64,000 nt of DNA. It comes from Candidatus Pacearchaeota archaeon (GTDB taxonomy: Archaea; Nanobdellota; Nanobdellia; Pacearchaeales; GW2011-AR1). This document shows positions 15,732-63,330 of the stretch, in pieces; the first letter of the stretch is position 1, and the number at the start of each line of letters is the position of its first letter. A program made the position numbers and the translations under genes. Where the stretch lies: positions 698 to 64,697 of the forward strand of contig JAVZZP010000002.1 in assembly GCA_038885615.1 (NCBI GenBank). The letters run 5' to 3'. The notes under the pieces are model-generated. The model was given only the letters and a program-made list of their open reading frames with translations, had not been told where the DNA came from and ran no database searches.

Positions 15732-15763
15732 ATTTTTTCTGAAACAACAAATATTATAAAGTT

Positions 15764-16060
15764 TTGTTTTTTTATTATCATATGGGAGAAAATCTGCCTA
15801 TGTATAATTCAGGTGAGAAAGGTCTTTATCAAGAAGGTTTGATTAAACATCTCAAAGAGCAGAATAGATATTTGAGAAAAACCATAAGATCTATACTTGA
15901 AAAAATTGTTGGAAAAGAAATAAATTCAAATGAAGACATAGAATTATCAATGAGCTGTTTTTTTTCTTATTGGCCAGATATTCATAGAATAAGAGAGGAA
16001 TATAGTAAGGGGTACAATTCACCTAAAACAGCTGATGAAGAGCAAATAGACTTTTTCTAA
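15764..16060 (+). CDS. hypothetical protein
   Basis: ORF only. Confidence 0.3.
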   Translation: MFFYYHMGENLPMYNSGEKGLYQEGLIKHLKEQNRYLRKTIRSILEKIVGKEINSNEDIELSMSCFFSYWPDIHRIREEYSKGYNSPKTADEEQIDFF

Positions 16061-17087: not shown

Positions 17088-18097
17088 TTTTTCCTCAGCT
17101 TTGCTAAAAAAAATCCGTCGCTATCGTTATCTTGCGGATAGATTCTTTTGCAAAATTTAATTTTTTCATCGAATTTTTTTCCTTCCCATTCTAAAATACC
17201 TGGGCGTGTTTTCATCGGAATTTCGAAATCTTCAATTTCTAAATTAAAGTTTCTTAACATAAAATCAACAACTTCTTCGTTTTCTTCGGGTGTTAAAGTA
17301 CATGTCGAATAAACCAAGGTTCCACTTTCTTTTAGCAGAGGAATAGCAGAGGCACATATCTTTTTTTGTTGTTGCGACAAGTTTTTTATAAAATTTAAGT
17401 TCCATATTTCAATAGTGTGAGGGCTTTTTCTTATAGTTCCTTCGCCCGAACAAGGTACATCTAGAAGAATTTTGTCAAATTTTAATTTTATTTTTTTAGA
17501 CCATATCTTACAGAATTGAACAGCGTCTTTTCTTGTTACAATAGTGTTTGTAACACCACATTTTTCTAAGTTTGCATTTAGAATCATTGTTCTATCTATT
17601 GTTAAATCATTAGCAATTATTGTTCCTTTGTTTTTCATCATGGCAGCCATTTGTGTTGTTTTTGAACCTGGAGAAGCACATAAATCGAGTACTAGTTCAT
17701 TTTCTTTTGGGCCTAGTGCTATAGGAGACATCATTGAGGAAATGTCTTGTACATAATAATAACCCAAAACATGTTCGAGGGTTTTTCCTAATTCGCCAGG
17801 CTTTAGATTTGTTTCTTTTTCAATAATAAGAATTTCTGGATAGTTTTCAAAAGGTTGTTTTATTTTCCAACCATAAGAAATTAATCTTTTTTGTAGTTCA
17901 TTTGGAGAAATTTTAAGAGTGTTACATCTTATAGAATCTATTGCTTCTTTTTGGCAAAATTCCCAGAATTTTTTTCTGTCTTCTTCGTTTGGGAGAAGTT
18001 TTCTTATTCTCTCTTCGAAGAGAGGTTTCATTTGAAAGGTCTTTTCTGCCATTTTAAAACAATTTCTCCTGTTTTTCTTCATTAAAAGCTTTTTCAA
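17084..18097 (-). CDS. NOL1/NOP2/Sun-family RNA cytosine-C5 methyltransferase (probable true start near 18052)
   Basis: LDLCASPGSKT SAM motif, catalytic ILLDVPCSGEG and YSTCTL motifs. Confidence 0.85.
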   Translation of the reverse strand: MKKLLMKKNRRNCFKMAEKTFQMKPLFEERIRKLLPNEEDRKKFWEFCQKEAIDSIRCNTLKISPNELQKRLISYGWKIKQPFENYPEILIIEKETNLKPGELGKTLEHVLGYYYVQDISSMMSPIALGPKENELVLDLCASPGSKTTQMAAMMKNKGTIIANDLTIDRTMILNANLEKCGVTNTIVTRKDAVQFCKIWSKKIKLKFDKILLDVPCSGEGTIRKSPHTIEIWNLNFIKNLSQQQKKICASAIPLLKESGTLVYSTCTLTPEENEEVVDFMLRNFNLEIEDFEIPMKTRPGILEWEGKKFDEKIKFCKRIYPQDNDSDGFFLAKLRKK

Positions 18098-20405
18098 AAT
18101 TTATTCCAGATGTTTCTAAAATAGTTTTTGCTATCGGCTTTATTTGTTTTTCAACATAATGCTCATAATCAATTTTGTGTTTTAATTTTTGTATTGGTTC
18201 TGGGCCATTTGTTGTTATGTAATATTCTATGAGATTGCTTTCTAGAGAATCAAGTTGACGAGCAGCCTTTACATGCGGCGGAGTTGTTTTCGTGTATTCT
18301 TCTAGTTCTTTTCTTATTGATTTTCTGTAAACTAGTTCTTTGTCGAGTTTTCCTTCTTTTAATTTTTTGATATGTTCTTTGATAAATGGAATTGGATTTT
18401 CTTTTTTGAAAATTTTTATTAGCAATTCTTTTTGAAAATTTTTTGCAGCTTCTGTCCAATCTCCGCGAATTGCTTCAAGTCCAACAATTTCAAGCTCTTC
18501 TTTTCCATTTTTTTCAATTAAGCCAGCATATCTTTTTTTTGCTCCTCTTGTCTCTTCTTGTGCCCTCATTTGAGGGATAATTAAAGATAAATAGAAAGAA
18601 TCAAACTCTAGTTCAAGGAAAGATTTTCTATTGAATTTTTCTTTGACATATTTTTCATAAAAAGAGTTTATTTCTTTTGGTAGTTTTTCCGCTAGTTTTA
18701 TTGCTTCTTCTTTATTTAGTTTTGTATGCACAAAAATGCTATCTGTATCTCCATAAAGAACTTCAAAACCTTTTTCTTCTACTTTTTTGGCAGTCATTTT
18801 TATTATTTCTTGTCCAAAGTGGGTTATTGCATTCGCCATTCTTAAATCAAAATATCTGCAGTTAGGAGAAGCGAGAACACCAAAAAAAGAGTTCATTATG
18901 ATTTTTATTGCGTAATTTGAAAGCTCTCTTTTTTCTTTTTTTGCCTTTTCTCTTGCTTCGTGAAGTTTTCCAAGTATTTCTGGAAGAATTCCTTCTTGGT
19001 TTTTGAAACAAGCACCATTTGGAGAAACGATACAATTTTTTTCGGGTTTTTCTATAAAACTTGCAGGATCTATGTTGAATGTTTTTATTATTGAAGGATA
19101 AAGTGATTTAAAATCAAAAGTTAGAACATTTTCATAAATGCCTGGTTTTGGGGTCATTACATATCCCCCTTTGATTTTTTCTTCTTTTTGATTGTATTTT
19201 GTTGTTGGAGAAACAAGATTTCTTTTTCTAGCCTCTCTTATATATAAAGAATCAAAAGCAGCTATAGAACCTGTAAGTTTATTTAATTGTAAACCTGTCA
19301 ACTCACTTCTTTCTATTTCCAAGTCGATTATTTTAGCTTTTTCTAAGATTTCATAAACTAAAACACAATCATTTAGATTGTAGTCTATTAGTTTTTCTTT
19401 ATTTTTTTTGTATAGCTCTTCTATCTCTTTGTGCTTGTTCTTTTTGAAAGAAATTGTTTTACCCTTACCGAGAATTGCTTGTGAAACATCTTCTAGGGAA
19501 TAAGATTCTGCTTTTATTGATTTAATAAGAGGAGATTCTTGTATAAATGGGTCTTTAATAAGATTTAGTCCATCTAAAGCAATTCTTCCAGGAATTTCAG
19601 CGGTAGAATTTTTAAAGAAATTTTTTTCTATTCTTATTTTTGCTTCTTCCTTTTCTTTTCTTCCTATATCAAACAAAATTTTGTTTTTTTTGAAAATTTC
19701 TTTTAGATAAAACAAATCAAAATCTATAAGGTTCCATCCGGTTATTATATCCGGATCAAAAGAGATTATTTCTTTTTTTAAATCTTCAAGAAGTTTTTCT
19801 TCTTTTTCATAGTTCTGTGCATTTTTTATTTTTTCTTTTGATATGATAAAACTTTTTTGATAATTTTTAGAATATAAACTTACGCAATACAATTCTCCTC
19901 TTTCAGAGGTTTCAATATCTAGAGAGAGTACTTTTAATTTTGTTTTTTCTTCTGATGAAAATTTCTTTATTTCCGGTTCTATATAAAACCTATCAACTCT
20001 TTGTTCGCTATCTGTTTTATAATCTCCATACAATTCTATTCTTGAGAAAATGTCATTGTCAATTAAAAAGCGAGTGTTTGGCTTTAAGTCTGCTTCAAAA
20101 GTTTCTATTTTTAAACTATTTAATAACTTCAAGAATTCTTTTTGTTTTTCATAGTTTTTAAATACTATTTTAAGGCATTCTTTTCCAGAAAAAGTTTTCT
20201 CAGAAGTTCTTTCAATTTTTGCATCAAACCCTTTTAAGTCCCCTTGTATTTTCTTTTCATCTTCTTTTTTTATAAAAAAATACGGAAAAAAGCTTTTTTC
20301 AACGACGAAGCTATGTCCATTTGTTAAGCGACCATATAAATAAATGTAAGTTTTGTCTTCTTTTGTTTCGTAGTCAGAATAAACAATAAATCCTATTTGT
20401 TTCAT
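18054..20405 (-). CDS. polB: family B DNA polymerase
   Basis: Exonuclease motifs, SLYPSII and YGDTDS polymerase motifs, 783 aa, no intein. Confidence 0.9.
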   Translation of the reverse strand: MKQIGFIVYSDYETKEDKTYIYLYGRLTNGHSFVVEKSFFPYFFIKKEDEKKIQGDLKGFDAKIERTSEKTFSGKECLKIVFKNYEKQKEFLKLLNSLKIETFEADLKPNTRFLIDNDIFSRIELYGDYKTDSEQRVDRFYIEPEIKKFSSEEKTKLKVLSLDIETSERGELYCVSLYSKNYQKSFIISKEKIKNAQNYEKEEKLLEDLKKEIISFDPDIITGWNLIDFDLFYLKEIFKKNKILFDIGRKEKEEAKIRIEKNFFKNSTAEIPGRIALDGLNLIKDPFIQESPLIKSIKAESYSLEDVSQAILGKGKTISFKKNKHKEIEELYKKNKEKLIDYNLNDCVLVYEILEKAKIIDLEIERSELTGLQLNKLTGSIAAFDSLYIREARKRNLVSPTTKYNQKEEKIKGGYVMTPKPGIYENVLTFDFKSLYPSIIKTFNIDPASFIEKPEKNCIVSPNGACFKNQEGILPEILGKLHEAREKAKKEKRELSNYAIKIIMNSFFGVLASPNCRYFDLRMANAITHFGQEIIKMTAKKVEEKGFEVLYGDTDSIFVHTKLNKEEAIKLAEKLPKEINSFYEKYVKEKFNRKSFLELEFDSFYLSLIIPQMRAQEETRGAKKRYAGLIEKNGKEELEIVGLEAIRGDWTEAAKNFQKELLIKIFKKENPIPFIKEHIKKLKEGKLDKELVYRKSIRKELEEYTKTTPPHVKAARQLDSLESNLIEYYITTNGPEPIQKLKHKIDYEHYVEKQIKPIAKTILETSGINFEKAFNEEKQEKLF

Positions 20406-25700: not shown

Positions 25701-25737
25701 TTTTTTATAAATAAAACTAATATTATAAATTTAACTT

Positions 25738-35856: not shown

Positions 35857-35894
35857 TTCGCAAGATTTTTAATGTCCTATTTTTATATTGTTTT

Positions 35895-39913: not shown

Positions 39914-42900
39914 ATGAAAAAGAGAGTGGTTTTTTCAAAAGTGTTATTATTTAGCCTATTTGTGCTAGTTTTTTTAGGTTTTTCCTTCGGAGCTTACACA
40001 ATAACAAAAATCTATAACTACACAGCAGAAGCTGTTTTAAATAATACAAAAGCAAATAATAATTTTCTTCATTTAGAGATTAATAATAGTGTTGAAAAAT
40101 ATTCTAATTTTAATGGTTTGTCTAATAATTACATAGGTTTGGGAAATATTAATGCTTATAAAATACCTTCTAAAACAATATCAGCTTGGATTTATAGAAT
40201 TAATGGAGGGACGCACGGAGTTTTTTCCTCTGCAAATAATAATTATTTCGTTGCAATTACAGGAACACAACCATATATAAATTATGCTAATTCAACAGAA
40301 AGCCAGAAACAATATTATGCTCCACCAAATTCTGCACCTTTAAATCAATGGAACCATATTGTTTGGGTTTATGATGTTAATGAGAGTAATGTCATAACAA
40401 GAATTTATGTTAATGGAAATTTAGTCTATAATAACACTCAAACAGACGGCTATTCTTCTACTTATGGAACTAATTTTGTAATAGGTGCTTTTAGTCCTTC
40501 TGTTATAAATTTTAATGGGAGCATAGATGATTTAGCTTTTTTTAATAGAGCTTTAAACCAAACAGAAATTCAAGAGCTATATAATTTAGGTAGAATAAAT
40601 TGTCCTTGTAATATTAGCGGAATAGTTAGTTTATGGGATTTTGATAATAATTTAAATGATTACACAGATAAAATAAGCGGATATAATGGTGTTAAATATG
40701 GGAATGTTTTTATACAAGCAGATGAAAGTTTGCCGGGAAATCATCCTTATGGCTCTCTTGTAGCTTATTGGAGTTTTGATGGAGATACAAATAACATATC
40801 TTATGATTTAAGTGGGAATAACTTAAATAGTGTTTATTATAATGGTTTAGTTAATAATAATTCCTGCAGTTTAGGTTATGGGAATTGCTTAACATTTGAT
40901 GGAGTTAATGATTATTTAGGAATAACAAATACGGCTTTTAATATATCAACATTTTCAGCAAGTTTATGGGTTTATATTGCTAATGAAACTACAAATAATC
41001 AAGGGATAGTTGGTATAGATAATGGTTATTATAATGGCTGGAGATGTGTTTATCTAAACACTAAAAGAATAGTTTGTCAGTTTGGAAGAGGAAGTCCAAA
41101 TACACCTTATGATTTATATTCTCCTATAAACTCTTTTCAAGCTAATAATTGGAATCATTTAGTTGTTACAAGGAATGTAAGTGGAAATGTTTCTATTTAC
41201 ATAAATGGGAATTTTTCTTCTTCGGGAATAAGCACTAACTTCACCTTAAACCAAGCTAATTTTAGATTAGGAGTAGATTTTGGCGGAATAAGTTATCTTA
41301 ATGGTTCTATTGATGAATTTATGTTTTTTAATAAAGCTTTAACACCAATAGAAGTTCAAAATATTTACAATAATCAATCACAAAGGTTTAAAAATAATGG
41401 AACGGCAACATTAAACTCAATACAACTAAATGAAACAGGAAACAATTTATTAAATTGGAAAATAAACAGCACGCAATTATTTAATACAAAGATTTATGGA
41501 AGTATTGGGGAATGTAATAATCAAACAAGTTTTTGTGGAAATAATACAGCAAACTATACATTTAAAGATGAAGTTGAGTTTATTAATGGAGAAGCAAACT
41601 TCACAATAAACACAAGTACAACAAACATTCTTCCAAGATTAAGGTTAGAAAGTCCGGGATTTTATACTCCGTATATTTTTACAAGTTCTGATTTTATAAT
41701 ATTCTCTCTGAAAGTTAATTTTTCCGGTGATACAACTAAAGAAGGAAATTTTTCGCAGGATTGGATTTATGCTAAAGTAGAGGGAGATCTTACAGGAGAT
41801 GTCAATATAACTCTATGGAATTCCTCTGGTTTAGTTGATTTTTTTATCGGAACAGAAAAGAATTTTACAAATCTTCAAGAAGATGCTTATTTTTTGAATG
41901 CAACAATAAAAGACATCGCCAACCAAACATTTTCAACAGAGACAAGAAAGATAATTTTAGACAGGACTCCTCCAACTGTTTTTATATTAGAACCAACAAA
42001 TAATTATTATTCTAATTCGAGCTCAAACTCTTTTAGATTTAATCTTTCAGATGAGCTTTCAGGGCTTAAAAACATTAGCTTAAGAATCTATAATTCTTCA
42101 GATGTTGTAAATACAACTTTTAAAGAAATTGCTGGCTACACAAAAGAAGAAGAAATAAATATTTCCTTAAATGACGGAGAATACTTATGGTATATAGATG
42201 TTTATGATACGGCAGAAAATTCTTTTGTTAGTCAAAACTATAGCTTAATAATAGACACTTCTTCTCCGAAGTTTTATAACTTAACTTACACTCCCAGCTA
42301 TTTAGGAGAAATAGACCCAAATACAACAATAACTTTCACTATAAATGCAACAGATGAAAGAACAAACATTTCTTCTGTAATACTAGAGATAAGAAATGAA
42401 ACTGATTCCCAATGGTATAACTTTCCCATGAACTTAATAGAAGGGGATTCTATTTCAGGTATTTACCAATACAACTTTACAACTTCTGAAGAAGAAACAA
42501 ACTACACTTTCAGAATATTTGCCAATGACTCTTCAAACAACATAAACAGAACTCAAGACATTTTCATAAGGTCGGAGTGGGACTGCACGTGGAATTTAAC
42601 AATAGAAGGATTAACAGGGAGCCATGTATTTGGCTTCAACCAAATAAAAGAAATAGGAAACATAACTTTCATAAATGATGGAGACAAAGAATACAAAAAT
42701 AACTCAGGTTGTTACATAAAATTCTCTCTTGAATACAATTCAACAATGATTGGTGAGTTCAGCTGGACATATATATCAAGGGCATTGCTTTCAGGTTATT
42801 ATCCTGGCTTAAGATTTAACCAAAGCTCTAATTGGGTTACTCCTTTTGATTTAGTAATAGAAAACAAAACAAATTTAACTCTTCCAATTTTAGGAGTTTT

Positions 42901-44776
42901 TCCTTCTGTTAGCTCTCCTTTAGAAGAATCTCCTGTTTTAAGAATTGACTCAAATATAACAGATACACTATTTAACAAAAACTATGAAACAATAAAAATA
43001 AACATGACAATAGCACAACCAGGAGCTTATTTAAGAAGGCCTGTTATAACTGAAAGCAAATCAGGAGTTATTTATTTAACAACCTCTTTATATGGAAATT
43101 ACACTAATTATACTTTCTACACAGAAAACATGGGTGGAACTGGAAATGAGAACTTTACTGCCTATAATGTTACACTAAACTGGAGCTTCCCATCTTCTTT
43201 TGTTTTAAGTTCTAATTCTTCAAGAGTTGTTGAAAACATGACTTATTCAGGAGTTTATGAATATCTAACAACAGAAGTTAATTGGGAAGAAAGCATAAAG
43301 AGCCTAGAAGAAGGTGTCTATAAAGTTTGTGCTTCTACTTTTGGTTATAAGAAAGAAAATGAAAATTATTCTTTAATACAGCATGCTAACGATGAAGTCA
43401 TCTTGGAGAATTGCTTAGATTTGTTTGTTTATTGCTATTCTCAGCCAGATGGAGTTTGTATTTCCTCATGCACTCATCTTAAAGATCCTGATTGTCCTGT
43501 TCCACAACAAACAAGCGCTGGAGGCTCTGGCGGAGGTAGTGGTAGCGGTGGAGGAAAGCAAGAAAAATCAGAAGCACAATTTGAATTAGTTATAGGAAAG
43601 CAGCAAGAGTTTATTCTTCCAATAAAGAACAAATATCCTCAGCCATTAACAAACTTAAAGATTTCTGTAGCAGGAATAAACTCTGAATTTATAGAAATAG
43701 TTCCAAAAGAAATAGAAAGAATAGAAGGAAATAAAGAATTTAATTTAACAATAAAAATAACTGCTCCAGCTTATTTTAAGGAAGGAAATTACACTTTAAG
43801 ATTTAAGATAGATGGATTTGTACAAACAAACCAGACAAAGTCGCCATATACAGAAACAAAATTAGTAACTTTGTATTTCTTAGACCTATCAAGAGAAGAT
43901 GCTTTAAAACTATTAGAAGAAGCAAACAAATTCATAGAAGAGATGAACAAGTCAAATCTTTATTTAAGAGAAGTTCTTTCTTTATTAGAAGAGATGAAAA
44001 AGAACTTGGAAGAAACAAAGTTTTCTTCTTTAAAGAGAAATTATGAAGAACTAAAGCTAATCTATGAAAGTGCTTTAGAAGCATTAAAGCTAAAACAAGA
44101 ACTTGAGCTATTAATAAAAGAAGCAAAGAACAATGGAATTAAAGTAATGGAAACAGAAAAGACATTTTTCTTGGCAGAAGCTGCTTTTAACAGAGGGGCA
44201 TTTAAAGAAGCTTCAGAGAAGTTTAAGCAAGCTAAATTAACCTATGCTGTTGAAACAAAAGGAGAGTTTAATCTTTATTATTATGTTAAGAACAATCCTT
44301 TAAGATCTGCTTCTATTCTAGCTTCTTTTTTAGTTTTAAGCTATTCTGCAGGTTTATTGACTAAAAGAGCTTTATTAAAAAGAAAACTTAAGCTATTGAA
44401 ACAAGAAGAATTGCTTTTGCTTGAACTAATGAAAACTGTTCAGAGAGAGTGCTTTGAGCTAGGCCATATGTCTATAGATGAGTATCAAACAGCAATGGCA
44501 CAATACGAAGAAAGATTAGGCCAGTGTGTTGAAGAAGAAATAAGAGCAGAAACCTCTTTAGCTCATTTAGGAAAAATAAAAGGCAAGAAAAAAGCACTAA
44601 ATCAAGAAAAAGAAAGATTAACAGAACTAATTAAGAAAACACAGGAGAAATACCTTGTTAAAGGAGAGATGGACACAAGAGTTTATTATTCAATGATAAA
44701 GAGCTATTCAAGAAGATTGACACAGGTTGAAGAAGAGCTTGCTTCTATTGAGTTGAAAGAGTGGATGAGGAGATAA
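39914..44776 (+). CDS. giant surface protein (1620 aa): signal peptide, two LamG/ConA-like lectin domains, sequon-rich beta domains, GS linker, coiled coil, TM, cytoplasmic coiled-coil tail
   Basis: WNHIVWVYD...GSIDDLAFFNRALNQTEIQELY and WNHLVVTRN...GSIDEFMFFNKALTPIEVQNIY (LamG); >100 N-x-S/T; SAGGSGGGSGSGGGK; TM SASILASFLVLSYSAGLL. Confidence 0.6.
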   Translation: MKKRVVFSKVLLFSLFVLVFLGFSFGAYTITKIYNYTAEAVLNNTKANNNFLHLEINNSVEKYSNFNGLSNNYIGLGNINAYKIPSKTISAWIYRINGGTHGVFSSANNNYFVAITGTQPYINYANSTESQKQYYAPPNSAPLNQWNHIVWVYDVNESNVITRIYVNGNLVYNNTQTDGYSSTYGTNFVIGAFSPSVINFNGSIDDLAFFNRALNQTEIQELYNLGRINCPCNISGIVSLWDFDNNLNDYTDKISGYNGVKYGNVFIQADESLPGNHPYGSLVAYWSFDGDTNNISYDLSGNNLNSVYYNGLVNNNSCSLGYGNCLTFDGVNDYLGITNTAFNISTFSASLWVYIANETTNNQGIVGIDNGYYNGWRCVYLNTKRIVCQFGRGSPNTPYDLYSPINSFQANNWNHLVVTRNVSGNVSIYINGNFSSSGISTNFTLNQANFRLGVDFGGISYLNGSIDEFMFFNKALTPIEVQNIYNNQSQRFKNNGTATLNSIQLNETGNNLLNWKINSTQLFNTKIYGSIGECNNQTSFCGNNTANYTFKDEVEFINGEANFTINTSTTNILPRLRLESPGFYTPYIFTSSDFIIFSLKVNFSGDTTKEGNFSQDWIYAKVEGDLTGDVNITLWNSSGLVDFFIGTEKNFTNLQEDAYFLNATIKDIANQTFSTETRKIILDRTPPTVFILEPTNNYYSNSSSNSFRFNLSDELSGLKNISLRIYNSSDVVNTTFKEIAGYTKEEEINISLNDGEYLWYIDVYDTAENSFVSQNYSLIIDTSSPKFYNLTYTPSYLGEIDPNTTITFTINATDERTNISSVILEIRNETDSQWYNFPMNLIEGDSISGIYQYNFTTSEEETNYTFRIFANDSSNNINRTQDIFIRSEWDCTWNLTIEGLTGSHVFGFNQIKEIGNITFINDGDKEYKNNSGCYIKFSLEYNSTMIGEFSWTYISRALLSGYYPGLRFNQSSNWVTPFDLVIENKTNLTLPILGVFPSVSSPLEESPVLRIDSNITDTLFNKNYETIKINMTIAQPGAYLRRPVITESKSGVIYLTTSLYGNYTNYTFYTENMGGTGNENFTAYNVTLNWSFPSSFVLSSNSSRVVENMTYSGVYEYLTTEVNWEESIKSLEEGVYKVCASTFGYKKENENYSLIQHANDEVILENCLDLFVYCYSQPDGVCISSCTHLKDPDCPVPQQTSAGGSGGGSGSGGGKQEKSEAQFELVIGKQQEFILPIKNKYPQPLTNLKISVAGINSEFIEIVPKEIERIEGNKEFNLTIKITAPAYFKEGNYTLRFKIDGFVQTNQTKSPYTETKLVTLYFLDLSREDALKLLEEANKFIEEMNKSNLYLREVLSLLEEMKKNLEETKFSSLKRNYEELKLIYESALEALKLKQELELLIKEAKNNGIKVMETEKTFFLAEAAFNRGAFKEASEKFKQAKLTYAVETKGEFNLYYYVKNNPLRSASILASFLVLSYSAGLLTKRALLKRKLKLLKQEELLLLELMKTVQRECFELGHMSIDEYQTAMAQYEERLGQCVEEEIRAETSLAHLGKIKGKKKALNQEKERLTELIKKTQEKYLVKGEMDTRVYYSMIKSYSRRLTQVEEELASIELKEWMRR

Positions 44777-44777
44777 A

Positions 44778-45437
44778 TTATTCTTTAATTTCTTCTTCTT
44801 TTTTGTTTGAGTTTTCTGATTTTTTTTGAACTTTTTCTTTATAACTTTTCAATTCATTGTATGTATCTATTAGAGGGTTCATTAATTTTGACATTGTTCC
44901 ATGAATATTATCTAGGTCTTTTTGAATTATCTTTGAGTTTTCTTCAAATTGACCGATTTTTCCAATTATTGCTTTTTGTAGGAAATCAAAACTATCCTCT
45001 ATTCTTTTTAGTCTTTCTTTTAAATTTTCTATTTCTTTTGCTAGATAAATATTCTCTTTTTTTAATGAATTCATACCTTCAATTAACTCCTTCATTTTTT
45101 TAGAAACAATTTGTTCTACTATTTCTGTCGTAGTATCTGCTGAGAATCCTTCAGAATAAGTTGGATATTGATAATACTCTTGACCGTATTGGGCATATTG
45201 TTCTTGCTGTCCGCCGTCGTAATTATAGTAACTTCCAGTAGCATTTTCTTGATTATAGCTCCCACTTTCTTGATATCCTTGTATATTGCTTGAGTTTATA
45301 GCGTTTTTTATTGCTGCTTGTGATGCAGCATCATTTATTTCAGCCATTGAGAAACCCTCTTCTTGAAGCATTTGATATATTTCATTCTCACTTTTGCCTT
45401 CTTTTTTTAGTTGATTATACCTTTCTAGAGCACCCAT
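44778..45437 (-). CDS. coiled-coil protein with Q/N/Y-rich low-complexity (prion-like) segment
   Basis: GYQESGSYNQENATGSYYNYDGGQQEQYAQYGQEYYQYPTY followed by heptad-rich C-terminus. Confidence 0.4.
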   Translation of the reverse strand: MGALERYNQLKKEGKSENEIYQMLQEEGFSMAEINDAASQAAIKNAINSSNIQGYQESGSYNQENATGSYYNYDGGQQEQYAQYGQEYYQYPTYSEGFSADTTTEIVEQIVSKKMKELIEGMNSLKKENIYLAKEIENLKERLKRIEDSFDFLQKAIIGKIGQFEENSKIIQKDLDNIHGTMSKLMNPLIDTYNELKSYKEKVQKKSENSNKKEEEIKE

Positions 45438-45442
45438 TTATT

Positions 45443-45793
45443 TTAGTTTTCTTTATTTTTAATTTTTTCTAAATATTCTTCTAGATCTTTTCTTCTTATA
45501 AATTCTAGTGGTTGGAAGTCCTTTAACATTCTTTCTATAAGTATCAAATCTTCTTTTTTTACAAATTTTGTTGTTTCTTCAAATATTGAATCTGCTTTTC
45601 TTTTTACGCTTTCAACTTTTAATTTAAGGTCCATATTCTCTTTCTCTATTTTTTCAATTCTTTTATCAAATTCCTCTTTTATTTCTATTAAACTTCTTGC
45701 CAACAAGTTTATTTTTTCTTTTAGTGATTCTATTTTTTCTTCTAATGAGGAGATTATAGCTCCCGCATCATAGTATTCACTTTCACCCGCCAT
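45443..45793 (-). CDS. small coiled-coil protein
   Basis: Heptad-rich; 5 nt upstream of 44778..45437 on same strand. Confidence 0.35.
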   Translation of the reverse strand: MAGESEYYDAGAIISSLEEKIESLKEKINLLARSLIEIKEEFDKRIEKIEKENMDLKLKVESVKRKADSIFEETTKFVKKEDLILIERMLKDFQPLEFIRRKDLEEYLEKIKNKEN

Positions 45794-45875: not shown

Positions 45876-48119
45876 ATGTTTAAGGATAAATCTTTATTTT
45901 CAACGGAAATAATCAGAAAAGAAGGTGAAAATATTCTTTATATTAATTTTATTGGTTTAGAATTTACTCCCTCTCTTGTAAACTCTCCCGAGATAATGGC
46001 AAGAGTCATCGATATTTTATCGCAAAACCCGAATGTTTCTAGAATGGTCTTTGTTTCTTACAAAAATTATAATTTTAATTTTGAGCAAGTTAACATGCTT
46101 TTAGAATTGGCGGATTTTTATAACTTTTTAATGCAAAAAGAAAAGATTCTCTCGAGTAAAAAGCTTTCATTAGTAAAAGATCCTCAAAGAGCTTTTAATT
46201 TTTTATCTGATTTTTTAATAAATCGTCTTAAACAAGATCCTGTTTTGGCATTTAAGTTATTAGAAGAGGAAATGAATTTTGTTGAAAAATTTGATGAGAA
46301 TTATTTTAATCTTTTAGACGGAATACATGAAAAATTTTCCAAACTAAAGCTAATTACAGTACTTGGAAATTATATTTATGATAGTTCTTTTAAGGGAAGA
46401 GAAATTTACTCAAAAATTTTTTATCCAGAGATAACTCCAAATTTCATTTTTTCCAGGGTTTTGTCAAAAATTCCTTCAGAATCAGAAATAGTAGATGAAT
46501 ATTCTATAGGAACTAATTTTGATAGGAGCATTGTTACCATAATAAAAGATAAGGAAAGTGCAAGATATGTTTATCATTTGTCTTGTCCCGAATATTCTCT
46601 GAAGGAAAGTTATCAGATTTTGCTTCTATCCGCTAAAAAGGTTTTATCAGAACATAAACCAACAACAGAAGAGTTTAACGATTTTGAAAGAACGAGACAG
46701 GTTTTTTTCAATGTTGCTAAAGATTTGTTAAGAGATTTATCTTCTTCTCAGGGAATTCCAATAAATAGTTCTGACATGGATCTTTTAGCTTCTATTCTTG
46801 TTAGAAATACTATTGGTTTTGGCATATTAGAGATAATACTGCAAGATGAGAATGTTCAAGACATTTTGATAAACTCCCCCACTTCAGCCTCTCCCGTTTT
46901 TATAAAACACAATAATTTTGATGAATGCTCTTCAAATATTTTTGTTTCTTACGAAGACGTAGAATCTTGGGCAGCAAAATTTAGGATGCTCTCTGGAAGG
47001 GCATTAGACGAGGCACACCCTATTTTAGATTGCTCTTTAAATTTAGAAAAAGCAAGTGCGAGGGTCGCGATTGTCCAGCAGCCTCTTTCCTCTTCAGGAA
47101 TATCTTACTCTTTAAGAAGACATAGGGATAAGCCATGGACTTTGCCTCTTTTTATAAAAAATAAGACTATAAATGGTCTTTGTGCGGGTTTGCTCTCTTT
47201 TTTAGTTGATGGTGCTAGAACGATGCTTGTTGCTGGGGCAAGGAGTTCAGGAAAGACATCTTTGCTTGGTAGTTTGATGATAGAAATCATGCCAAAGTAT
47301 AGAATAATTACAGTTGAAGATACTATCGAACTACCGGTTTTACCAATGAAAAGATTAGGGTATGACATATTGTCTATGAAAGTAAGAAGCGCTTTGACAG
47401 GAGAATCCAATGAGGTCTCAGCAGAAGAAGGAATTAGGGCCTCTTTAAGGTTGGGCGATTCGGCACTTATTGTCGGTGAAATAAGAAGCGAAGAAGCAAA
47501 ATCTTTGTATGAGGCGATGAGGGTTGGTGCTTTAGCAAACGTTGTAGCAGGTACAATTCATGGTGTTTCTCCATATGGAGTATTTGACAGAGTTGTAAAT
47601 GACCTCAATGTTCCTATCACTAGCTTTAAGGCTACGGATTGTATAATTATTGTAAATCCTATAAAAACTCCCGATGGTATGAGATCTATGAGAAGATTGC
47701 TTCAATTGACAGAAGTAAGAAAACATTGGAACAAAGATCCTTTAGATGAAGGCGGTTTTGTTGATTTAATGAAATATGACGTTGAAAAAGACCAACTGCT
47801 TCCTTCGGATGATTTAATTAACGGGGATTCTGAGATAATAAAATCAATAGCTTCAAATGTCAAGGGGTGGGCTGGAAAGTGGGATGCAGTATGGGAGAAT
47901 ATTTTATTAAGACAAAAAATAAAAGAGGAATTAGTTTCTTTATCAGAAAAAACAAAAATAAATGATTTTTTAGAAGCGGAGTTTGTTGTTAAATCAAATA
48001 ATGAATTCCATGAGATTTCCCAAAAAGTAAGAGAAGAACTTGGTTCTTTGTCTTCGGAAGATATTTTTTCAAGATGGAAAGAGTGGCTTGAAAAAGAGGC
48101 TAAAAAGTTTAATCTTTAA
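45876..48119 (+). CDS. type IV pilus/archaellum-family assembly ATPase (FlaI/TadA/VirB11 superfamily) with long N-terminal domain
   Basis: Walker A GARSSGKTS, FlaI-type RIITVEDTIEL, His-box LIVGEIRSEEA. Confidence 0.8.
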   Translation: MFKDKSLFSTEIIRKEGENILYINFIGLEFTPSLVNSPEIMARVIDILSQNPNVSRMVFVSYKNYNFNFEQVNMLLELADFYNFLMQKEKILSSKKLSLVKDPQRAFNFLSDFLINRLKQDPVLAFKLLEEEMNFVEKFDENYFNLLDGIHEKFSKLKLITVLGNYIYDSSFKGREIYSKIFYPEITPNFIFSRVLSKIPSESEIVDEYSIGTNFDRSIVTIIKDKESARYVYHLSCPEYSLKESYQILLLSAKKVLSEHKPTTEEFNDFERTRQVFFNVAKDLLRDLSSSQGIPINSSDMDLLASILVRNTIGFGILEIILQDENVQDILINSPTSASPVFIKHNNFDECSSNIFVSYEDVESWAAKFRMLSGRALDEAHPILDCSLNLEKASARVAIVQQPLSSSGISYSLRRHRDKPWTLPLFIKNKTINGLCAGLLSFLVDGARTMLVAGARSSGKTSLLGSLMIEIMPKYRIITVEDTIELPVLPMKRLGYDILSMKVRSALTGESNEVSAEEGIRASLRLGDSALIVGEIRSEEAKSLYEAMRVGALANVVAGTIHGVSPYGVFDRVVNDLNVPITSFKATDCIIIVNPIKTPDGMRSMRRLLQLTEVRKHWNKDPLDEGGFVDLMKYDVEKDQLLPSDDLINGDSEIIKSIASNVKGWAGKWDAVWENILLRQKIKEELVSLSEKTKINDFLEAEFVVKSNNEFHEISQKVREELGSLSSEDIFSRWKEWLEKEAKKFNL

Positions 48120-48143
48120 TAGAAGAATTTATTAAGCTGTTTT

Positions 48144-50354
48144 TTGTCTTATCTTAAAAGAGGGAAGATGGATTCAAAAGAATTGATCAGGGCCTATGAA
48201 AATAGGTTAAGTGAGGAGATTAATAATTTTAGTAATGAAGGATATAGTACAAGTTATAAAGAATTTCTGAAAAGTTATGAGGTGCCTTTGTCTTCTTATG
48301 AAAGATGGTGCAAGGCCTTAGGAAACATTGTTAAACTAAACCCCTCTAAAAAAGAAGAAGAAAAAATTCAAAAATTCATTCAACAAGCGCATTTAAATAT
48401 AACTCCTTCAGAAGCACTTTCTTTTTCTTTTATGTCTTTTTTTGTTATTTTCATCTTAGGGTTTTTTTTGGTTTTGGGTTATTGGTATCTTTTTACCAGT
48501 GGAAATTTTGACGATTTTCCTTTCGGGGTTTTTCTTCTTATTTTGTTTTGTTCTATATTTATTTTTTATTTTACTTATGGAATGCCTGAGAGATTGGCTT
48601 TTTTGTGGAGATTAAAGGCAAGCACTCAGATGGTGCCTGCTGTTCTATACACCGTTATATACATGAAGAATACTTCTAATTTTGAGAAAGCTATCGCTTT
48701 TGCTGCGCAACATTTGGATCCACCTCTTGCTTTGGATTTTAAAAAAATATTTTGGAATGTGGAAGTAGGAAAATATAAAAATGTCAAGGAGAGCGTTGAT
48801 GCCTATTTAGAAGAGACATGGAGAGGATATTCTTTAGAATTTATAGAGGCCTTTCAGCTAATTGAGTCTAGTTTGTATGAGCCAAATGAAGAAAGGAGAA
48901 TTTCTTTTTTGGAAAGGGCTTTGCAAGTTATTTTAGACGGAGTTTATGACAGAATGTTAAGATACACACATGAAGTAAAATCTCCTTTGACAAACATTTA
49001 TATGTTAGGGATTATTTTGCCTACACTTTCTTTGGCGATAATTCCTTTGGCTTCGGCGATGCTTCAGGGCTTTATTAAAGCAGCACATTTGTTTTTTTTG
49101 TTTAATGTTATTGTGCCTTTTGGGGTTTTTTATTTGACCTGGAATGTTATAAGCAAGAGACCTGGTGGTTATGGAAATAGCTCTTATTTAGAAAAAAATC
49201 CTTTGTACTATAAGTATATCGATAAATCTGCTTATGTCAAGGCTTTCTTTTTAGTTTTTCCTTTATTGTTAATAGGTTTTATTCCATTAATTTTTATGCA
49301 TACTCCTCTTTACGAGTGGATTGGTCTAGAAAGCAGAGAAATTCTCTTAGAGAAAATAGGATTAGGTTTTTTTGGAAAAAATACAGGAGTTTTTGGTTTT
49401 ATAAATACAAGCGAGGGTTTTAAAGGACCATTTAGTTTTATTTCAGTTATCTTTTCTTTGTTTATACCTCTTTCTATTGCATTGTTTTTTATTACTGCTT
49501 TTAAAATAAGAACAGAAGAACTTATCAGAGAAAGAAAGCGTTATAAAGAAGTTGAAGAGAGTTTTACTTCTTCTTTATTTCAATTAGGCAACAGGCTTGG
49601 AGATGGTATGCCTGCAGAAATTGCATTTGGTAAGGTTGCAGAAACCTCTAAAGGAAGTTCTTCAGAGGGATTTTTTTTAGCAGTAGAACAGAATATAACT
49701 TCTTTGGGGATGTCAGTTAGAGATGCAATATTTGATGAAAATCGTGGTGCGATTATATTTTACCCTTCTTCTTTGATTGCTATTTCTATGAAAATAATGG
49801 TTGAATCAGTAAGAAAAGGATTGCAGATTGCAGCTAGAAGTTTGTTGTCTATAGCAGAATATGTAAAGAATATGAAGAAAGTTACAGATAGGATGAAAGA
49901 TTTATTGGCAGATATTGTTTCAGATATGAAATCAAATATGACTTTTTTAGCTCCCTTGCTTTCAGGAATTATTATAGGGCTTTCTGTTATGATTACTTCA
50001 ATTTTGTTAATACTTAAAAATTTTACTTCAGTTGTTGGCGGTGAGGCAGGAAATATCGGGAGTTTTGGTGAGGGCGGTCTAGCCAGCATTATTAAGATGT
50101 TTAATGTTGAGGAAATGATTCCACCTTTTTGGTTGCAGATTATCATAGGAATTTATCTTATTCAAATAATATTTATTTTAACATCTACTTTAGTTGCTAT
50201 TAGTGAAGGAGAAGATGATTTGGAAAGAACTTATCAAACTGCAAAAAATCTTCAAACAGGAATTACTCTTTATTTTGTTATTGCTTTAATTTCAATTTTA
50301 ATCTTGTCCTTTGTTGGGGCAGTTGTTTTAAAAGGAGTTTTAAGTGAGGGATAG
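48144..50354 (+). CDS. polytopic membrane platform protein (FlaJ/TadC-like, T2SS-F family)
   Basis: 736 aa, at least 8 TMs in two clusters; immediately downstream of the ATPase. Confidence 0.55.
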   Translation: MSYLKRGKMDSKELIRAYENRLSEEINNFSNEGYSTSYKEFLKSYEVPLSSYERWCKALGNIVKLNPSKKEEEKIQKFIQQAHLNITPSEALSFSFMSFFVIFILGFFLVLGYWYLFTSGNFDDFPFGVFLLILFCSIFIFYFTYGMPERLAFLWRLKASTQMVPAVLYTVIYMKNTSNFEKAIAFAAQHLDPPLALDFKKIFWNVEVGKYKNVKESVDAYLEETWRGYSLEFIEAFQLIESSLYEPNEERRISFLERALQVILDGVYDRMLRYTHEVKSPLTNIYMLGIILPTLSLAIIPLASAMLQGFIKAAHLFFLFNVIVPFGVFYLTWNVISKRPGGYGNSSYLEKNPLYYKYIDKSAYVKAFFLVFPLLLIGFIPLIFMHTPLYEWIGLESREILLEKIGLGFFGKNTGVFGFINTSEGFKGPFSFISVIFSLFIPLSIALFFITAFKIRTEELIRERKRYKEVEESFTSSLFQLGNRLGDGMPAEIAFGKVAETSKGSSSEGFFLAVEQNITSLGMSVRDAIFDENRGAIIFYPSSLIAISMKIMVESVRKGLQIAARSLLSIAEYVKNMKKVTDRMKDLLADIVSDMKSNMTFLAPLLSGIIIGLSVMITSILLILKNFTSVVGGEAGNIGSFGEGGLASIIKMFNVEEMIPPFWLQIIIGIYLIQIIFILTSTLVAISEGEDDLERTYQTAKNLQTGITLYFVIALISILILSFVGAVVLKGVLSEG

Positions 50355-50499
50355 CAAAAACTATTTAAACTTTTTTTTTATTTTAACTTTATGGATTATG
50401 GCATTCCAGAAAAGAGGAGAACAAAAAAGGATTTGAAGTTAAAGAGAAAATATAGAGTTTATAAAAAAGGCGGTCAATTCAGAGATCAAAATATAAATA

Positions 50500-51315
50500 A
50501 TGGAAGCTGAAATTTTTTTCTTTATTTTAGTTTTGCTCTTCATTGCTTCTTTGCAGGATTTTAAAAGAAGAGAGATTGATGTTTGGTTGAACTTATTTAT
50601 TTTCTTTTGTGGTCTTTCTTTTGTTATCTTCAAATCATTTTTTTACAATGAAGTTGCATATTTAGTCAATTTTTCTTTTTTGTTAGTTTTTGTTTTTATT
50701 TTAGCTCATTTAATTTATTTTGGAAAAGTTTTTGCTGGCGGAGATTGTTCTTTGCTTTTTTGTCTTTCTCCTTTTTTCGTATCAATAGACTTTTTTAGTA
50801 GTTTTAAGAATTTCTTATTTTTTTTTGTAGTACTTTTTGCTTTGGGTTCTTTTTATGGTTTTTTTTGGAGTTTTTCTCTTTTTGTTAAGAATTTTGCATT
50901 TGTAAGAAAAAAATTGTTTTCTGGTAGGGTTTTAATCTCCTCGGCTTTTATTTTTCTTTTTTTATTTTTGTCCTTCTTTTTTAAAGAGTTTATTTTTATT
51001 TTTTTTATCGGATTTTTTTTATTTTTTAGTTATTTATTTTTAAAGTTGGAAAAAGAGCTTTTTATCAAGGAAGTTTTAACGAAGGATTTAAGAGAAGGAG
51101 ATTGGCTTGAAAAAGATTTGAGGGTCAATGGAAAAATTATTAAAAGCACATTTGATGGTCTTTCAAAAAAAGATATTTACTTTTTAAGAAATAACTTAAG
51201 AAAGGTTAAGATAAAAGACGGAATTCCCTATGGTTTTGCTTTTTTTCTTGCCTGGATAGCCTATTACTTTTTAGATTTTATTATGGAATTCTTGGTTTCA
51301 AAATTGGTAATCTAG
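50500..51315 (+). CDS. prepilin/preflagellin peptidase (FlaK/PibD family, A24-like aspartyl protease)
   Basis: ASLQDFKRREID (cf. FlaK ASVQDFRSREIE) and AGGD second catalytic Asp motif; multi-TM. Confidence 0.7.
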   Translation: MEAEIFFFILVLLFIASLQDFKRREIDVWLNLFIFFCGLSFVIFKSFFYNEVAYLVNFSFLLVFVFILAHLIYFGKVFAGGDCSLLFCLSPFFVSIDFFSSFKNFLFFFVVLFALGSFYGFFWSFSLFVKNFAFVRKKLFSGRVLISSAFIFLFLFLSFFFKEFIFIFFIGFFLFFSYLFLKLEKELFIKEVLTKDLREGDWLEKDLRVNGKIIKSTFDGLSKKDIYFLRNNLRKVKIKDGIPYGFAFFLAWIAYYFLDFIMEFLVSKLVI

Positions 51316-63329: not shown

Positions 63330-63330
63330 A

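What the first reader, a model, noticed from the sequence alone, without database searches (positions are those of the whole stretch)
39914..44776. 1620-aa LamG-containing, sequon-saturated surface protein with an unusual TM-then-coiled-coil cytoplasmic tail
The architecture is: signal peptide, 2 LamG/ConA-like lectin domains, multiple beta domains with >100 N-x-S/T sequons, a Gly-Ser linker, an extracellular coiled coil, one TM, then an about 130-aa cytoplasmic coiled-coil tail. The tail suggests coupling to an intracellular partner. The adjacent minus-strand coiled-coil genes (44778..45793) and the pilus ATPase follow immediately, so a functional link is plausible.
Basis: partly seen in the sequence, partly recalled or inferred. 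Interest (0 to 1): 0.6.

Follow-up and report, generated by a model that had tools for sequence, protein, structure and literature searches.

The report
DPANN adhesin with conserved cytoplasmic tail
This gene encodes a large sugar-coated surface protein of a tiny symbiotic archaeon whose membrane anchor and inner tail are shared by hundreds of otherwise different surface proteins, and relatives point to a small ATPase cassette, not the neighbouring pilus genes, as its likely inside partner.

Summary
The ORF (39914..44776, +, 1620 aa) is real. It comes from a Candidatus Pacearchaeota MAG. Confirmed features are a Sec-type signal peptide, two LamG domains, Ig-like domains, a Gly/Ser linker, one TM helix and a 137-aa C-terminal tail. 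Two details need correcting. There are 71 sequons, not more than 100, though that is still about 2.5 times chance. The tail is helical but not a canonical coiled coil.

The last 434 aa form an undescribed module of beta-sandwich, helical ectodomain, TM and tail. It matches 706 protein clusters, always at the C-terminus and always below unrelated head domains. Every locus recovered came from DPANN archaea. The tail is the most conserved part.

Sequon depletion and the positive-inside rule across 114 members place the tail in the cytoplasm.

The proposed pilus link fails. None of 35 loci carrying relatives of the pilus ATPase has such a gene. Only 1 of 35 module loci has the ATPase. The closest syntenic relative carries an aspartyl-tRNA synthetase gene at this position.

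The two coiled-coil genes are conserved partners of the pilus ATPase.

In relatives the recurrent partners are a ~300-aa paralogue of the module, a 2-TM protein and a dedicated KaiC-like ATPase. The paralogue is fused to the giant protein in two lineages. This cassette is absent from the window.

The parts
39914..44776 (+). Whole gene: 1620-aa type I membrane surface glycoprotein (LamG head, conserved stalk, anchor and tail)
   Evidence: ORF list and translation. Identical to an NCBI protein annotated 'LamG-like jellyroll fold domain-containing protein [Candidatus Pacearchaeota archaeon]'.
39914..39994 (+). Sec-type signal peptide (aa 1-27)
   Evidence: The only strongly hydrophobic N-terminal stretch (KD >2 over aa 3-30). 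It ends in SFG/AYT. By reading, it has no prepilin-type motif.
40166..40573 (+). LamG / ConA-like domain 1 (aa 85-220)
   Evidence: Pfam Laminin_G_3, E 1.6e-23, 84 bits
40898..41359 (+). LamG / ConA-like domain 2 (aa 329-482)
   Evidence: Pfam Laminin_G_3, E 6.8e-24, 85 bits
42038..42553 (+). Ig-like beta domains (aa 709-880)
   Evidence: Big_13, DUF7035, DUF7743 and Big_7 matches, E 3e-10 to 7e-5 when the segment is scanned alone
42182..43471 (+). Family-conserved stalk (aa 757-1186), ending in a Cys-rich knot
   Evidence: tblastn aligns aa ~757-1186 to the region just upstream of the module in most related loci, at 26-35% identity
43517..43555 (+). Gly/Ser linker AGGSGGGSGSGGG (aa 1202-1214)
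   Evidence: Read from the translation. A Gly-rich linker sits at the same place in homologues. AF2 pLDDT is below 50 here.
43556..43882 (+). NEW3/CARDB-like beta-sandwich (aa 1215-1323)
   Evidence: Pfam NPCBM_assoc, E 0.0013. AF2 strands, pLDDT 81-87. Foldseek matches to PapD/FimC-type Ig folds, E 3e-6.
43892..44257 (+). Extracellular helical domain (aa 1327-1448), ending in the conserved ALETKGEFN motif
   Evidence: Five AF2 helices, pLDDT 84-92. Heptad periodicity z 3-4.4. Homologous to the ectodomain of the ~300-aa partner protein (hhalign 98.3%).
44306..44362 (+). Single transmembrane helix (aa 1465-1483)
   Evidence: Best hydrophobic 19-mer after the ETKGE motif (KD 1.55; family mean 1.99). 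K+R is 2 before and 7 after the TM in this protein; the family means are 1.75 and 5.2.
44363..44773 (+). Cytoplasmic tail domain (aa 1484-1620): juxtamembrane basic helix plus three helices
   Evidence: AF2 tail-only model, pLDDT 85. Most conserved region of the module. Sequons are depleted about 20-fold relative to the ectodomain across 114 members. No Pfam, NCBIfam or PDB relative.
44405..44521 (+). Tail repeat 1 (aa 1498-1536; LLELMKTVQRECFELGHMSIDEYQTAMAQYEERL)
   Evidence: Highest conservation in the module (top-residue frequency 0.65; 13 of 39 columns at or above 80%). The same motif occurs once in the small partner.
44618..44731 (+). Tail repeat 2 (aa 1569-1606; LTELIKKTQEKYLVKGEMDTRVYYSMIKSYSRRL)
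   Evidence: By reading, 16 of 42 positions are identical to repeat 1. Conserved family-wide.
44778..45793 (-). Not part of the feature: two soluble coiled-coil proteins (219 aa and 116 aa) belonging to the pilus ATPase locus
   Evidence: Homologues lie next to the ATPase gene, on the opposite strand, in 13 of 35 ATPase loci, and none of those 35 loci has a module gene.
45876..51315 (+). Not part of the feature: type IV pilus-like core (747-aa T2SSE/FlaI-like ATPase, 736-aa polytopic membrane protein, A24 prepilin peptidase)
   Evidence: Pfam T2SSE and Peptidase_A24. NCBIfam TadA/FlaI-like. The locus is syntenic in L038 without the surface-protein gene.

Best explanation
The gene encodes a modular, heavily N-glycosylated adhesin-type surface protein of a Pacearchaeota (DPANN) archaeon. 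A variable head, here two LamG lectin-like domains plus Ig-like domains, sits on a conserved C-terminal stalk, anchor and tail module. Every locus recovered with this module came from DPANN archaea.

Shown here:
- The module is a beta-sandwich, a helical ectodomain, one TM helix and a ~135-aa cytoplasmic helical domain built from a duplicated motif.
- It occurs at the extreme C-terminus of hundreds of proteins with unrelated heads.
- The tail is its most conserved part.
- The topology is N-out/C-in.

Inferred:
- The module pairs in the membrane with a ~300-aa paralogue that has the same helical ectodomain, TM and one tail repeat.
- Together with a small 2-TM protein, this presents the tails to a dedicated single-domain KaiC-like ATPase.
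- That would couple what the head binds outside (probably host or substrate glycans) to an ATP-dependent switch inside. The coupling could be signalling or control of clustering and activity of the adhesins.

The window copy is an 'orphan' paralogue. It lacks the cassette nearby and would use one encoded elsewhere in the genome. Its position next to the pilus genes is incidental.
For: Module family:
- The 434-aa C-terminus matches 706 representative clusters (293 at E<=1e-30). Among the 150 listed hits, nearly all matches end at or near the C-terminus of proteins of 259-5389 aa.
- Heads differ between members: LamG, Beta_helix/NosD, DUF4625 or none.
- All 35 GTDB loci are from DPANN archaea, and several genomes have 3-4 copies.

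Tail conservation:
- In A1, 26 of 41 invariant columns lie in the tail.
- Over 154 members, the top-residue frequency is 0.57 in the tail and 0.45 in the ectodomain parts.
- Paralogues within one genome share 98-99% identical DNA at the 3' end of the module.

Topology:
- In 114 members, 43.5% of Asn in the ectodomain lie in sequons, against 6.1% in the tail.
- K+R counts are 1.75 before and 5.2 after the TM.

Partner cassette:
- The small paralogue lies directly downstream in 13 of 35 module loci.
- A dedicated KaiC-like ATPase (E about 1e-131 to 1e-137) is present in 11 of 35.
- The paralogue is fused to the giant protein in L016 (Nanohalarchaeota) and L025 (Aenigmatarchaeota).
- hhalign of module against paralogue gives 98.3% probability, E 2.5e-14.
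- Starting from the paralogue, 5 of 5 long-contig loci have paralogue, 2-TM protein and KaiC-like ATPase. Giants are adjacent in L073 and L077 and not adjacent in L074 and L076; L075 starts too close to its contig end to tell.
- The ATPase has an intact Walker A motif, GGPGSGKT.
Against: - No small paralogue, 2-TM protein or dedicated KaiC-like ATPase is present in the 64-kb window; only RadA and RadB are. Their presence in this genome is unverified.
- Physical interaction between tail and ATPase is inferred only from gene order and two fusions. No complex prediction or experiment was possible.
- 22 of 35 module loci lack the cassette nearby. Many of these are contig fragments.
- The adhesin role of the head rests on domain type only.
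- KaiC-like ATPases are common in archaea, and adjacency can reflect co-regulation without contact.
Confidence: 0.6

Rival explanations
1. Pilus-coupled adhesin. The cytoplasmic tail engages the adjacent coiled-coil proteins and the type IV pilus ATPase, so that the surface protein works with the pilus.
For: - In the window the gene ends 1 nt before the 219-aa coiled-coil gene, which converges on it. The ATPase, membrane-platform and prepilin peptidase genes follow.
- One other locus, L026, has the order module gene, 219-aa homologue, ATPase.
Against: - None of 35 loci with relatives of this ATPase (36-80% identity) contains a module gene, while 13 retain the coiled-coil genes.
- Only 1 of 35 module loci has the ATPase.
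- L038 is syntenic on both sides but has an aspartyl-tRNA synthetase gene in place of this gene.
- The gene is transcribed towards the coiled-coil genes, which lie on the opposite strand, so it cannot share a transcription unit with them.
- It has a Sec-type signal, not a prepilin signal.
Confidence: 0.05
2. Passive stalk and anchor. The module only holds the protein in the membrane and oligomerises it, like SlaB or tetrabrachion-type stalks. The tail is an oligomerisation plug with no signalling or ATPase partner.
For: - The order beta-sandwich, helical region, C-terminal TM resembles known archaeal S-layer anchors (my own knowledge).
- The ectodomain helices show heptad periodicity.
- Most module loci lack the cassette nearby.
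- DPANN surface proteins with Ig folds and a C-terminal TM helix are already described (bioRxiv 10.1101/2023.10.27.564410).
Against: - The cytoplasmic tail, not the stalk, is the most conserved region.
- A paralogue sharing the TM and tail motif, together with a strongly conserved ATPase, forms a cassette in 5 of 5 loci examined. The paralogue is fused to the giant protein twice.
- SlaB-type anchors have no sizeable cytoplasmic domain (my own knowledge).
Confidence: 0.2
3. Dedicated export, insertion or quality-control machine. The paralogue, the 2-TM protein and the KaiC-like ATPase form an assembly system that handles these very long glycoproteins. The tail is the recognition tag for that machine.
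For: - The gene-order and fusion evidence is the same as for the best explanation.
- RecA/KaiC-superfamily ATPases can act as motors (my own knowledge).
- One shared tag on many different cargo proteins fits a handling system.
Against: - The proteins carry ordinary Sec signal peptides and a stop-transfer TM, so no extra export route is needed.
- The tail is C-terminal, so it emerges only after the ectodomain has been translocated.
- No channel-like polytopic component is present in the cassette.
Confidence: 0.12

Closest known systems
LamG/ConA-like giant surface proteins of DPANN archaea (e.g. SPEARE-type proteins of Nanohaloarchaeota; LamG proteins listed in PMC9563170)
   Same: Large secreted or anchored proteins with LamG lectin-like domains in episymbiotic archaea, presumed to mediate cell-cell contact.
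   Different: Previous descriptions concern the heads. I found no report of the shared C-terminal beta-sandwich/helical/TM/cytoplasmic-tail module or of its ATPase cassette.
Nanobdella aerobiophila surface proteins with Ig-like folds, many N-glycosylation sites and a C-terminal TM helix (bioRxiv 10.1101/2023.10.27.564410)
   Same: The same general class: DPANN, N-glycosylated, Ig-fold-rich, C-terminally anchored.
   Different: No conserved cytoplasmic domain or KaiC-like partner is described there. Homology to the present module was not tested.
SlaB / tetrabrachion-type archaeal S-layer stalks
   Same: Beta-sandwich domains followed by a helical stalk and a C-terminal TM anchor (my own knowledge).
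   Different: - Those stalks have no cytoplasmic domain.
- No similarity was detected: the Foldseek top hits are PapD-like Ig folds only, and the PDB profile search found nothing.
- The present family is multi-copy with variable heads, unlike a single lattice protein.
ArlX-ArlH (FlaX-FlaH) of the archaellum: a membrane protein with a cytoplasmic helical domain scaffolding a KaiC-like ATPase
   Same: It works like this in outline: a single-pass membrane protein whose cytoplasmic helices would engage a single-domain KaiC-like ATPase (my own knowledge for ArlX-ArlH; cassette evidence).
   Different: - The partner ATPase scores 47 bits against the ArlH model, whose cut-off is 215.
- No ArlI/ArlJ genes lie in the cassette.
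- The membrane partners here have large ectodomains.
KaiC-like ATPases as proposed archaeal signal-transduction hubs (Makarova, Galperin and Koonin 2017, cited in PMC6393860)
   Same: A single-domain KaiC-like ATPase encoded with membrane-associated input proteins.
   Different: That paper could not be read here, so whether it covers this particular DPANN cassette is unknown.

Membership tests
Laminin_G_3 (PF13385) ConA-like lectin domain proteins | Match to the Pfam model above the gathering score | tested here: met
   Two domains, 84.0 and 85.2 bits against a cut-off of 27.6
DPANN C-terminal anchor-tail module family (unnamed, defined here) | Full-length similarity to the ~430-aa module, located at the extreme C-terminus | tested here: met
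   Among the 150 listed hits most cover query residues ~2-434 and end at or near the protein's C-terminus; 293 clusters at E<=1e-30
DPANN C-terminal anchor-tail module family (unnamed, defined here) | Conserved tail residues and the duplicated Q-x-x-[FY]...G-x-[MI]-[SD]...Y...Y..RL motif | tested here: met
   All 41 invariant columns of A1 are present in the window protein; both repeats are present
DPANN C-terminal anchor-tail module family (unnamed, defined here) | N-out/C-in topology with a glycosylated ectodomain and an unglycosylated tail | tested here: met
   71 sequons before the TM and 0 after it. Family-wide, 4.58 against 0.23 sequons per 100 aa. K+R is 2 before and 7 after the TM. This is statistical inference, not experiment.
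Giant-protein / small-paralogue / 2-TM / KaiC-like ATPase cassette | Small paralogue, 2-TM protein and dedicated KaiC-like ATPase encoded next to the module gene | tested here: not met
   HMMs of all three find nothing specific in the 64-kb window; only RadA, RadB and Cdc48 match weakly. The window copy is an orphan paralogue.
Type IV pilus system component (pilin or pilus-associated adhesin) | Class III (prepilin) signal peptide | tested here: not met
   The N-terminus is a classical Sec signal with a 20-residue hydrophobic core and an SFG/A site (by reading). Pilin-like N-termini occur in other window genes.
Type IV pilus system component (pilin or pilus-associated adhesin) | Conserved co-localisation with the pilus ATPase and platform genes | tested here: not met
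   0 of 35 ATPase loci and 1 of 35 module loci
SlaB-like S-layer anchor | Sequence or fold similarity to SlaB, and absence of a cytoplasmic domain | tested here: not met
   No PDB sequence match, no SlaB among the Foldseek hits, and a 137-aa cytoplasmic domain is present
SHOCT domain (PF09851); resemblance of the G-x-h-S/T-x-x-E-Y motif recalled from memory | Match to the Pfam SHOCT model | tested here: not met
   Pfam scan of the tail alone at E<=5 lists no SHOCT hit
ArlH (archaellum KaiC-like ATPase), tested on the cassette ATPase of relatives | Score above the NCBIfam ArlH cut-off | tested here: not met
   47.3 bits against a cut-off of 215. It is also below the cut-offs of all named KaiC subfamilies.

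The most novel reading that the evidence does not exclude
DPANN archaea may possess a lineage-wide adhesion-receptor system. In it, many interchangeable adhesin heads share one anchor whose cytoplasmic tail, paired with a small paralogue and a 2-TM protein, is read or driven by a dedicated KaiC-like ATPase. This would be an integrin-like outside-in or inside-out coupling that controls attachment to the host cell. Concerted evolution of the tail among paralogues (98-99% identical 3' ends) would keep all heads compatible with a single cytoplasmic hub.
Probability: 0.3. Interest if true: 0.8.

Novelty: new variant of a known kind. Interest (0 to 1): 0.6.

Why it matters
How DPANN episymbionts recognise and hold on to their hosts is an open question. 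Their large surface proteins are usually listed only as 'LamG proteins' or 'hypothetical'.

A single conserved anchor and tail underlies hundreds of different heads, and a small, strongly conserved ATPase cassette travels with it. Together these give a concrete, testable handle. The tail, its ~300-aa paralogue, the 2-TM protein and the KaiC-like ATPase can be expressed and tested for binding. The module can also serve as a sequence tag to catalogue the adhesin repertoire of any DPANN genome.

The work also corrects a plausible but wrong inference. Adjacency to pilus genes in a compact genome is not a functional link here.

Tried and rejected
- **Pilus link.** Tested in both directions and rejected.
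- **Second cassette in the window.** The minus-strand run 14844..20405 looked like a similar gene series, but it encodes PolB, RsmB, a kinase, a PUA domain and an M24 peptidase. The 1337-aa protein at 58348 is followed by MoxR and DUF58, which is a different system.
- **Other recurrent neighbours of module genes.** These are primase, PCNA, Rad50/Mre11 and eIF2B, i.e. housekeeping genes reflecting local synteny only.
- **Known families for the module or tail.** Pfam, NCBIfam, the PDB sequence profile and Foldseek PDB gave nothing beyond the Ig-like beta-sandwich. A weak Foldseek match of the tail to the cytosolic domain of OST1/ribophorin I (8whn, E 0.43) is not significant.
- **SHOCT-like reading of the tail motif.** Not supported by Pfam.
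- **Source record.** The source contig could not be retrieved by exact-protein look-up. The 2017 KaiC-hub paper is not held.
- **Literature.** Searches found no description of the module or cassette.
Full report
**The observation**

The ORF at 39914..44776 on the + strand is real and encodes 1620 aa. The protein is identical to an NCBI entry annotated 'LamG-like jellyroll fold domain-containing protein [Candidatus Pacearchaeota archaeon]' on a 69-kb MAG contig. The window has about 30% G+C and carries archaeal housekeeping genes such as RadA, PolB and Cdc48.

- a Sec-type signal peptide;
- two Laminin_G_3 domains at aa 85-220 and 329-482 (84 and 85 bits);
- weak Ig-like matches at aa 709-880;
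- a Gly/Ser linker at aa 1202-1214;
- a NEW3/CARDB-like beta-sandwich at aa 1215-1323;
- a helical ectodomain at aa 1327-1448;
- one TM segment at aa 1465-1483;
- a 137-aa tail.

Two details are wrong or loose. There are 71 N-x-S/T sequons, not more than 100. The enrichment is still real, with 70 in aa 1-1330 against 28.5 +/- 4.4 in shuffles. The tail is helical but is not a canonical coiled coil. AlphaFold2 gives four helices separated by conserved loops (pLDDT 85), and hydrophobic 3.5-residue periodicity is absent over the tail (z -0.3). It is present in the extracellular helices (z 3-4.4).

**What the C-terminus is**

The top full-length homologues have different N-terminal parts (LamG, Beta_helix/NosD, DUF4625 or none) but the same C-terminal ~430 aa. 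An exhaustive phmmer search with aa 1187-1620 found 706 representative clusters at E<=1e-3, 576 at <=1e-10 and 293 at <=1e-30. Among the 150 listed hits, most cover nearly the whole query, and nearly all end at or near the C-terminus of proteins of 259-5389 aa. The region is therefore a conserved module, not a low-complexity coiled coil.

It has no Pfam or NCBIfam model and no relative in the PDB by sequence profile. By fold, only its beta-sandwich matches anything, namely PapD/FimC-like Ig folds. The tail-only model has no significant match (best E 0.26).

A scan of GTDB species representatives returned 35 loci. All are from DPANN archaea: Pace-, Woese-, Nano-, Aenigmat-, Undin- and Nanohal-archaeota. 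Several genomes contribute 3-4 loci. tblastn shows that the conserved part often extends upstream to about aa 757 of the window protein.

**Topology and conservation**

I used 114 family members in which the ETKGE motif and the TM segment could be located.
- In the ectodomain, 43.5% of Asn lie in sequons (4.58 sequons per 100 aa; S+T fraction 0.20).
- In the tail, 6.1% of Asn lie in sequons (0.23 per 100 aa; S+T fraction 0.095).
- The 15 residues before the TM carry 1.75 K+R on average, and the 15 after it carry 5.2.

Both lines place the tail in the cytoplasm.

The tail is also the best-conserved part of the module. In alignment A1, 26 of 41 invariant columns lie in it. Over 154 members the mean top-residue frequency is 0.57 in the tail and 0.65 in its first repeat. 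It is 0.45 in the beta-sandwich, 0.45 in the ectodomain helices and 0.41 around the TM.

The tail contains an internal duplication. LLELMKTVQRECFELGHMSIDEYQTAMAQYEERL and LTELIKKTQEKYLVKGEMDTRVYYSMIKSYSRRL share 16 of 42 positions by reading. Paralogues within one genome can share 98-99% identical DNA over the tail-coding 500-600 bp while their downstream genes differ (L009, L024, L030). Many contigs break inside the module.

**The pilus hypothesis**

The downstream genes do form a type IV pilus-like core: a 747-aa T2SSE/FlaI-like ATPase, a 736-aa polytopic protein and an A24 prepilin peptidase. The 219-aa and 116-aa coiled-coil genes are transcribed divergently from the ATPase.

The test was run in both directions.
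- From the module side, only L026 of 35 loci has the ATPase and a 219-aa homologue nearby. The locus with the most similar module (L003, 78% identity) does not.
- From the ATPase side, 35 metagenomic loci carry relatives of the ATPase at 36-80% identity. Thirteen of them keep homologues of the 219-aa and/or 116-aa genes next to the ATPase gene, on the opposite strand. None contains a module gene.
- The closest locus, L038, is syntenic on both sides (541-aa, 257-aa, Na+/H+ antiporter ... 219-aa, 116-aa, ATPase, platform, peptidase, HIT). It has an aspartyl-tRNA synthetase gene where the window has the surface-protein gene.

The coiled-coil genes therefore belong to the pilus locus, and the surface protein does not.

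**What travels with the module**

Clustering ORFs from the 35 module loci revealed three recurrent neighbours.
- A 286-346-aa protein sits directly downstream on the same strand. It has a signal peptide, a helical ectodomain, one TM and a tail carrying one copy of the same motif (LIxxTQKDYFxxGKISEGxYxIRTKKFAELIRDIDRQIPLL). It is present in 13 of 35 loci.
- A 150-200-aa protein has a conserved N-terminal domain and two TM segments. It is present in 5 loci.
- A 256-357-aa single-domain KaiC-like ATPase (Pfam PF06745, E 9e-44) is present in 11 loci, with E about 1e-131 to 1e-137 against its own profile. This score clearly separates it from RadA and RadB.

Profile-profile comparison shows that the small protein is a paralogue of the module's helical ectodomain, TM and first tail repeat (98.3% probability, E 2.5e-14 over 208 columns). 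In L016 (Nanohalarchaeota) and L025 (Aenigmatarchaeota) the small protein is fused to the C-terminus of the giant protein and is followed by the ATPase. Such a fusion argues for physical association.

Starting from the small protein (at least 152 homologues; those that carry a name are called 'hypothetical' or 'uncharacterised'), all 5 long-contig loci examined have the order small protein, 2-TM protein, KaiC-like ATPase.
- L073 has one adjacent giant and L077 has two in tandem.
- L074 and L076 have no adjacent giant.
- L075 starts too close to its contig end to tell.
- None has pilus genes.

The ATPase has an intact Walker A motif (GGPGSGKT) and is very strongly conserved. It falls below the NCBIfam cut-offs for ArlH and for all named KaiC subfamilies. 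The three-gene cassette is therefore the constant element. Module-bearing giants may lie beside it or elsewhere in the genome.

The 64-kb window contains no copy of the cassette, so the window gene is an orphan paralogue.

**Most likely mechanism**

Shown: the protein is a type I, N-glycosylated surface protein with a lectin-type head. It stands on a DPANN-specific anchor whose cytoplasmic domain is under the strongest constraint.

Inferred from paralogy, gene order and two fusions: the anchor pairs with the small paralogue, and probably the 2-TM protein, in the membrane. The assembled tails then engage the KaiC-like ATPase. This would couple binding outside the cell to an ATP-dependent switch inside it.

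I cannot tell whether the coupling is outside-in signalling, inside-out control of adhesin state or clustering, or a biogenesis function. I give the signalling or regulation reading about 0.6, a passive anchor 0.2, a handling machine 0.12 and the pilus link 0.05.

**Comparison with what is known**

DPANN surface proteins with LamG domains, or with Ig folds and a C-terminal TM helix, are already described in general terms (PMC9563170; bioRxiv 10.1101/2023.10.27.564410). KaiC-like ATPases have been proposed as archaeal signalling hubs (cited in PMC6393860). ArlX-ArlH is a functional analogue, from my own knowledge.

I found no description of this module, of its paralogue or of the cassette. The 2017 KaiC paper could not be read, so prior mention there cannot be excluded.

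I therefore rate the finding a new variant of a known kind: a membrane-anchored archaeal adhesin with a previously unrecognised, family-defining cytoplasmic domain and an associated ATPase cassette.

**Verdict**

The 'intracellular partner' idea is supported in principle, but the wrong partner was named. Interest is 0.6. The window gene itself is one orphan member, but it opens a DPANN-wide system that can be tested directly.

Noticed in passing
window 44778-45793 (-) with 45876-48119 (+): The 219-aa and 116-aa soluble coiled-coil proteins are conserved neighbours of this long (747-aa) T2SSE/FlaI-like ATPase, encoded on the opposite strand. Homologues are present in 13 of 35 related ATPase loci. 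They may be uncharacterised accessory components of a DPANN pilus machine.
   Followed up: partly
window 23383-27882 (-) and 31708-32745 (-): A run of small and medium genes without Pfam matches has N-termini that look like prepilin (class III) signals, e.g. MKKNKKAQISSTLSWFVATIVIFFIL and MGKKKAQLQSDPIIIFIVVILVV. These are candidate pilins for the pilus core encoded 12-20 kb away.
   Followed up: no
window 58348-64000 (+): A second sequon-rich 1337-aa secreted protein is followed by a MoxR AAA+ ATPase (62358-63329) and a DUF58/vWA protein (63313 onwards). This resembles the MoxR-vWA 'novel secretion or membrane-remodelling' neighbourhood predicted by Makarova et al. 2015 (PMC5898192).
   Followed up: partly
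window 35799-39882 (+); L038 412-4458: The upstream genes keep the same order in the closest relative. They are a 541-aa secreted Cys-rich protein with its own Gly-rich linker, a 257-aa membrane protein and a Na+/H+ antiporter with a TrkA_N domain. The surface-protein gene sits at a synteny break, so it looks like an insertion or replacement there.
   Followed up: partly
L009 2420-3026, L024 1-607, L030 1-527 (one Woesearchaeota MAG): Three module copies in one genome share 98-99% identical DNA over the tail-coding end but have different downstream genes. About half of all module loci start at a contig break inside the module. This suggests gene conversion or head swapping at the module, although assembly or strain artefacts are not excluded.
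   Followed up: partly
L016 1-6198 and L025 3-3668: In a Nanohalarchaeota MAG and an Aenigmatarchaeota MAG the ~300-aa paralogue is fused to the C-terminus of the giant protein, giving two TM segments and two tails. The KaiC-like ATPase gene follows directly.
   Followed up: partly
tail model mb47a6ad0ea98 (window aa 1455-1620): The tail-only Foldseek hits include the cytosolic helical domain of OST1/ribophorin I from an Asgard archaeon (8whn, E 0.43) and the human OST complex chain 8b6l_O. OST1/ribophorin I is another single-pass protein with a luminal beta-sandwich, a TM helix and a cytosolic helical bundle. The matches are not significant.
   Followed up: no
L026 2043-2938: In the only other locus where module gene and pilus ATPase are neighbours, two extra genes lie between the coiled-coil genes and the ATPase: a nucleotidyltransferase (MNT-like) and a 137-aa protein with no Pfam match.
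   Followed up: no
P0214: One module-bearing protein is labelled 'Ignavibacteria bacterium' in NCBI. It lies on a 3.6-kb contig and is probably a binning error, because every other named source is a DPANN archaeon.
   Followed up: no
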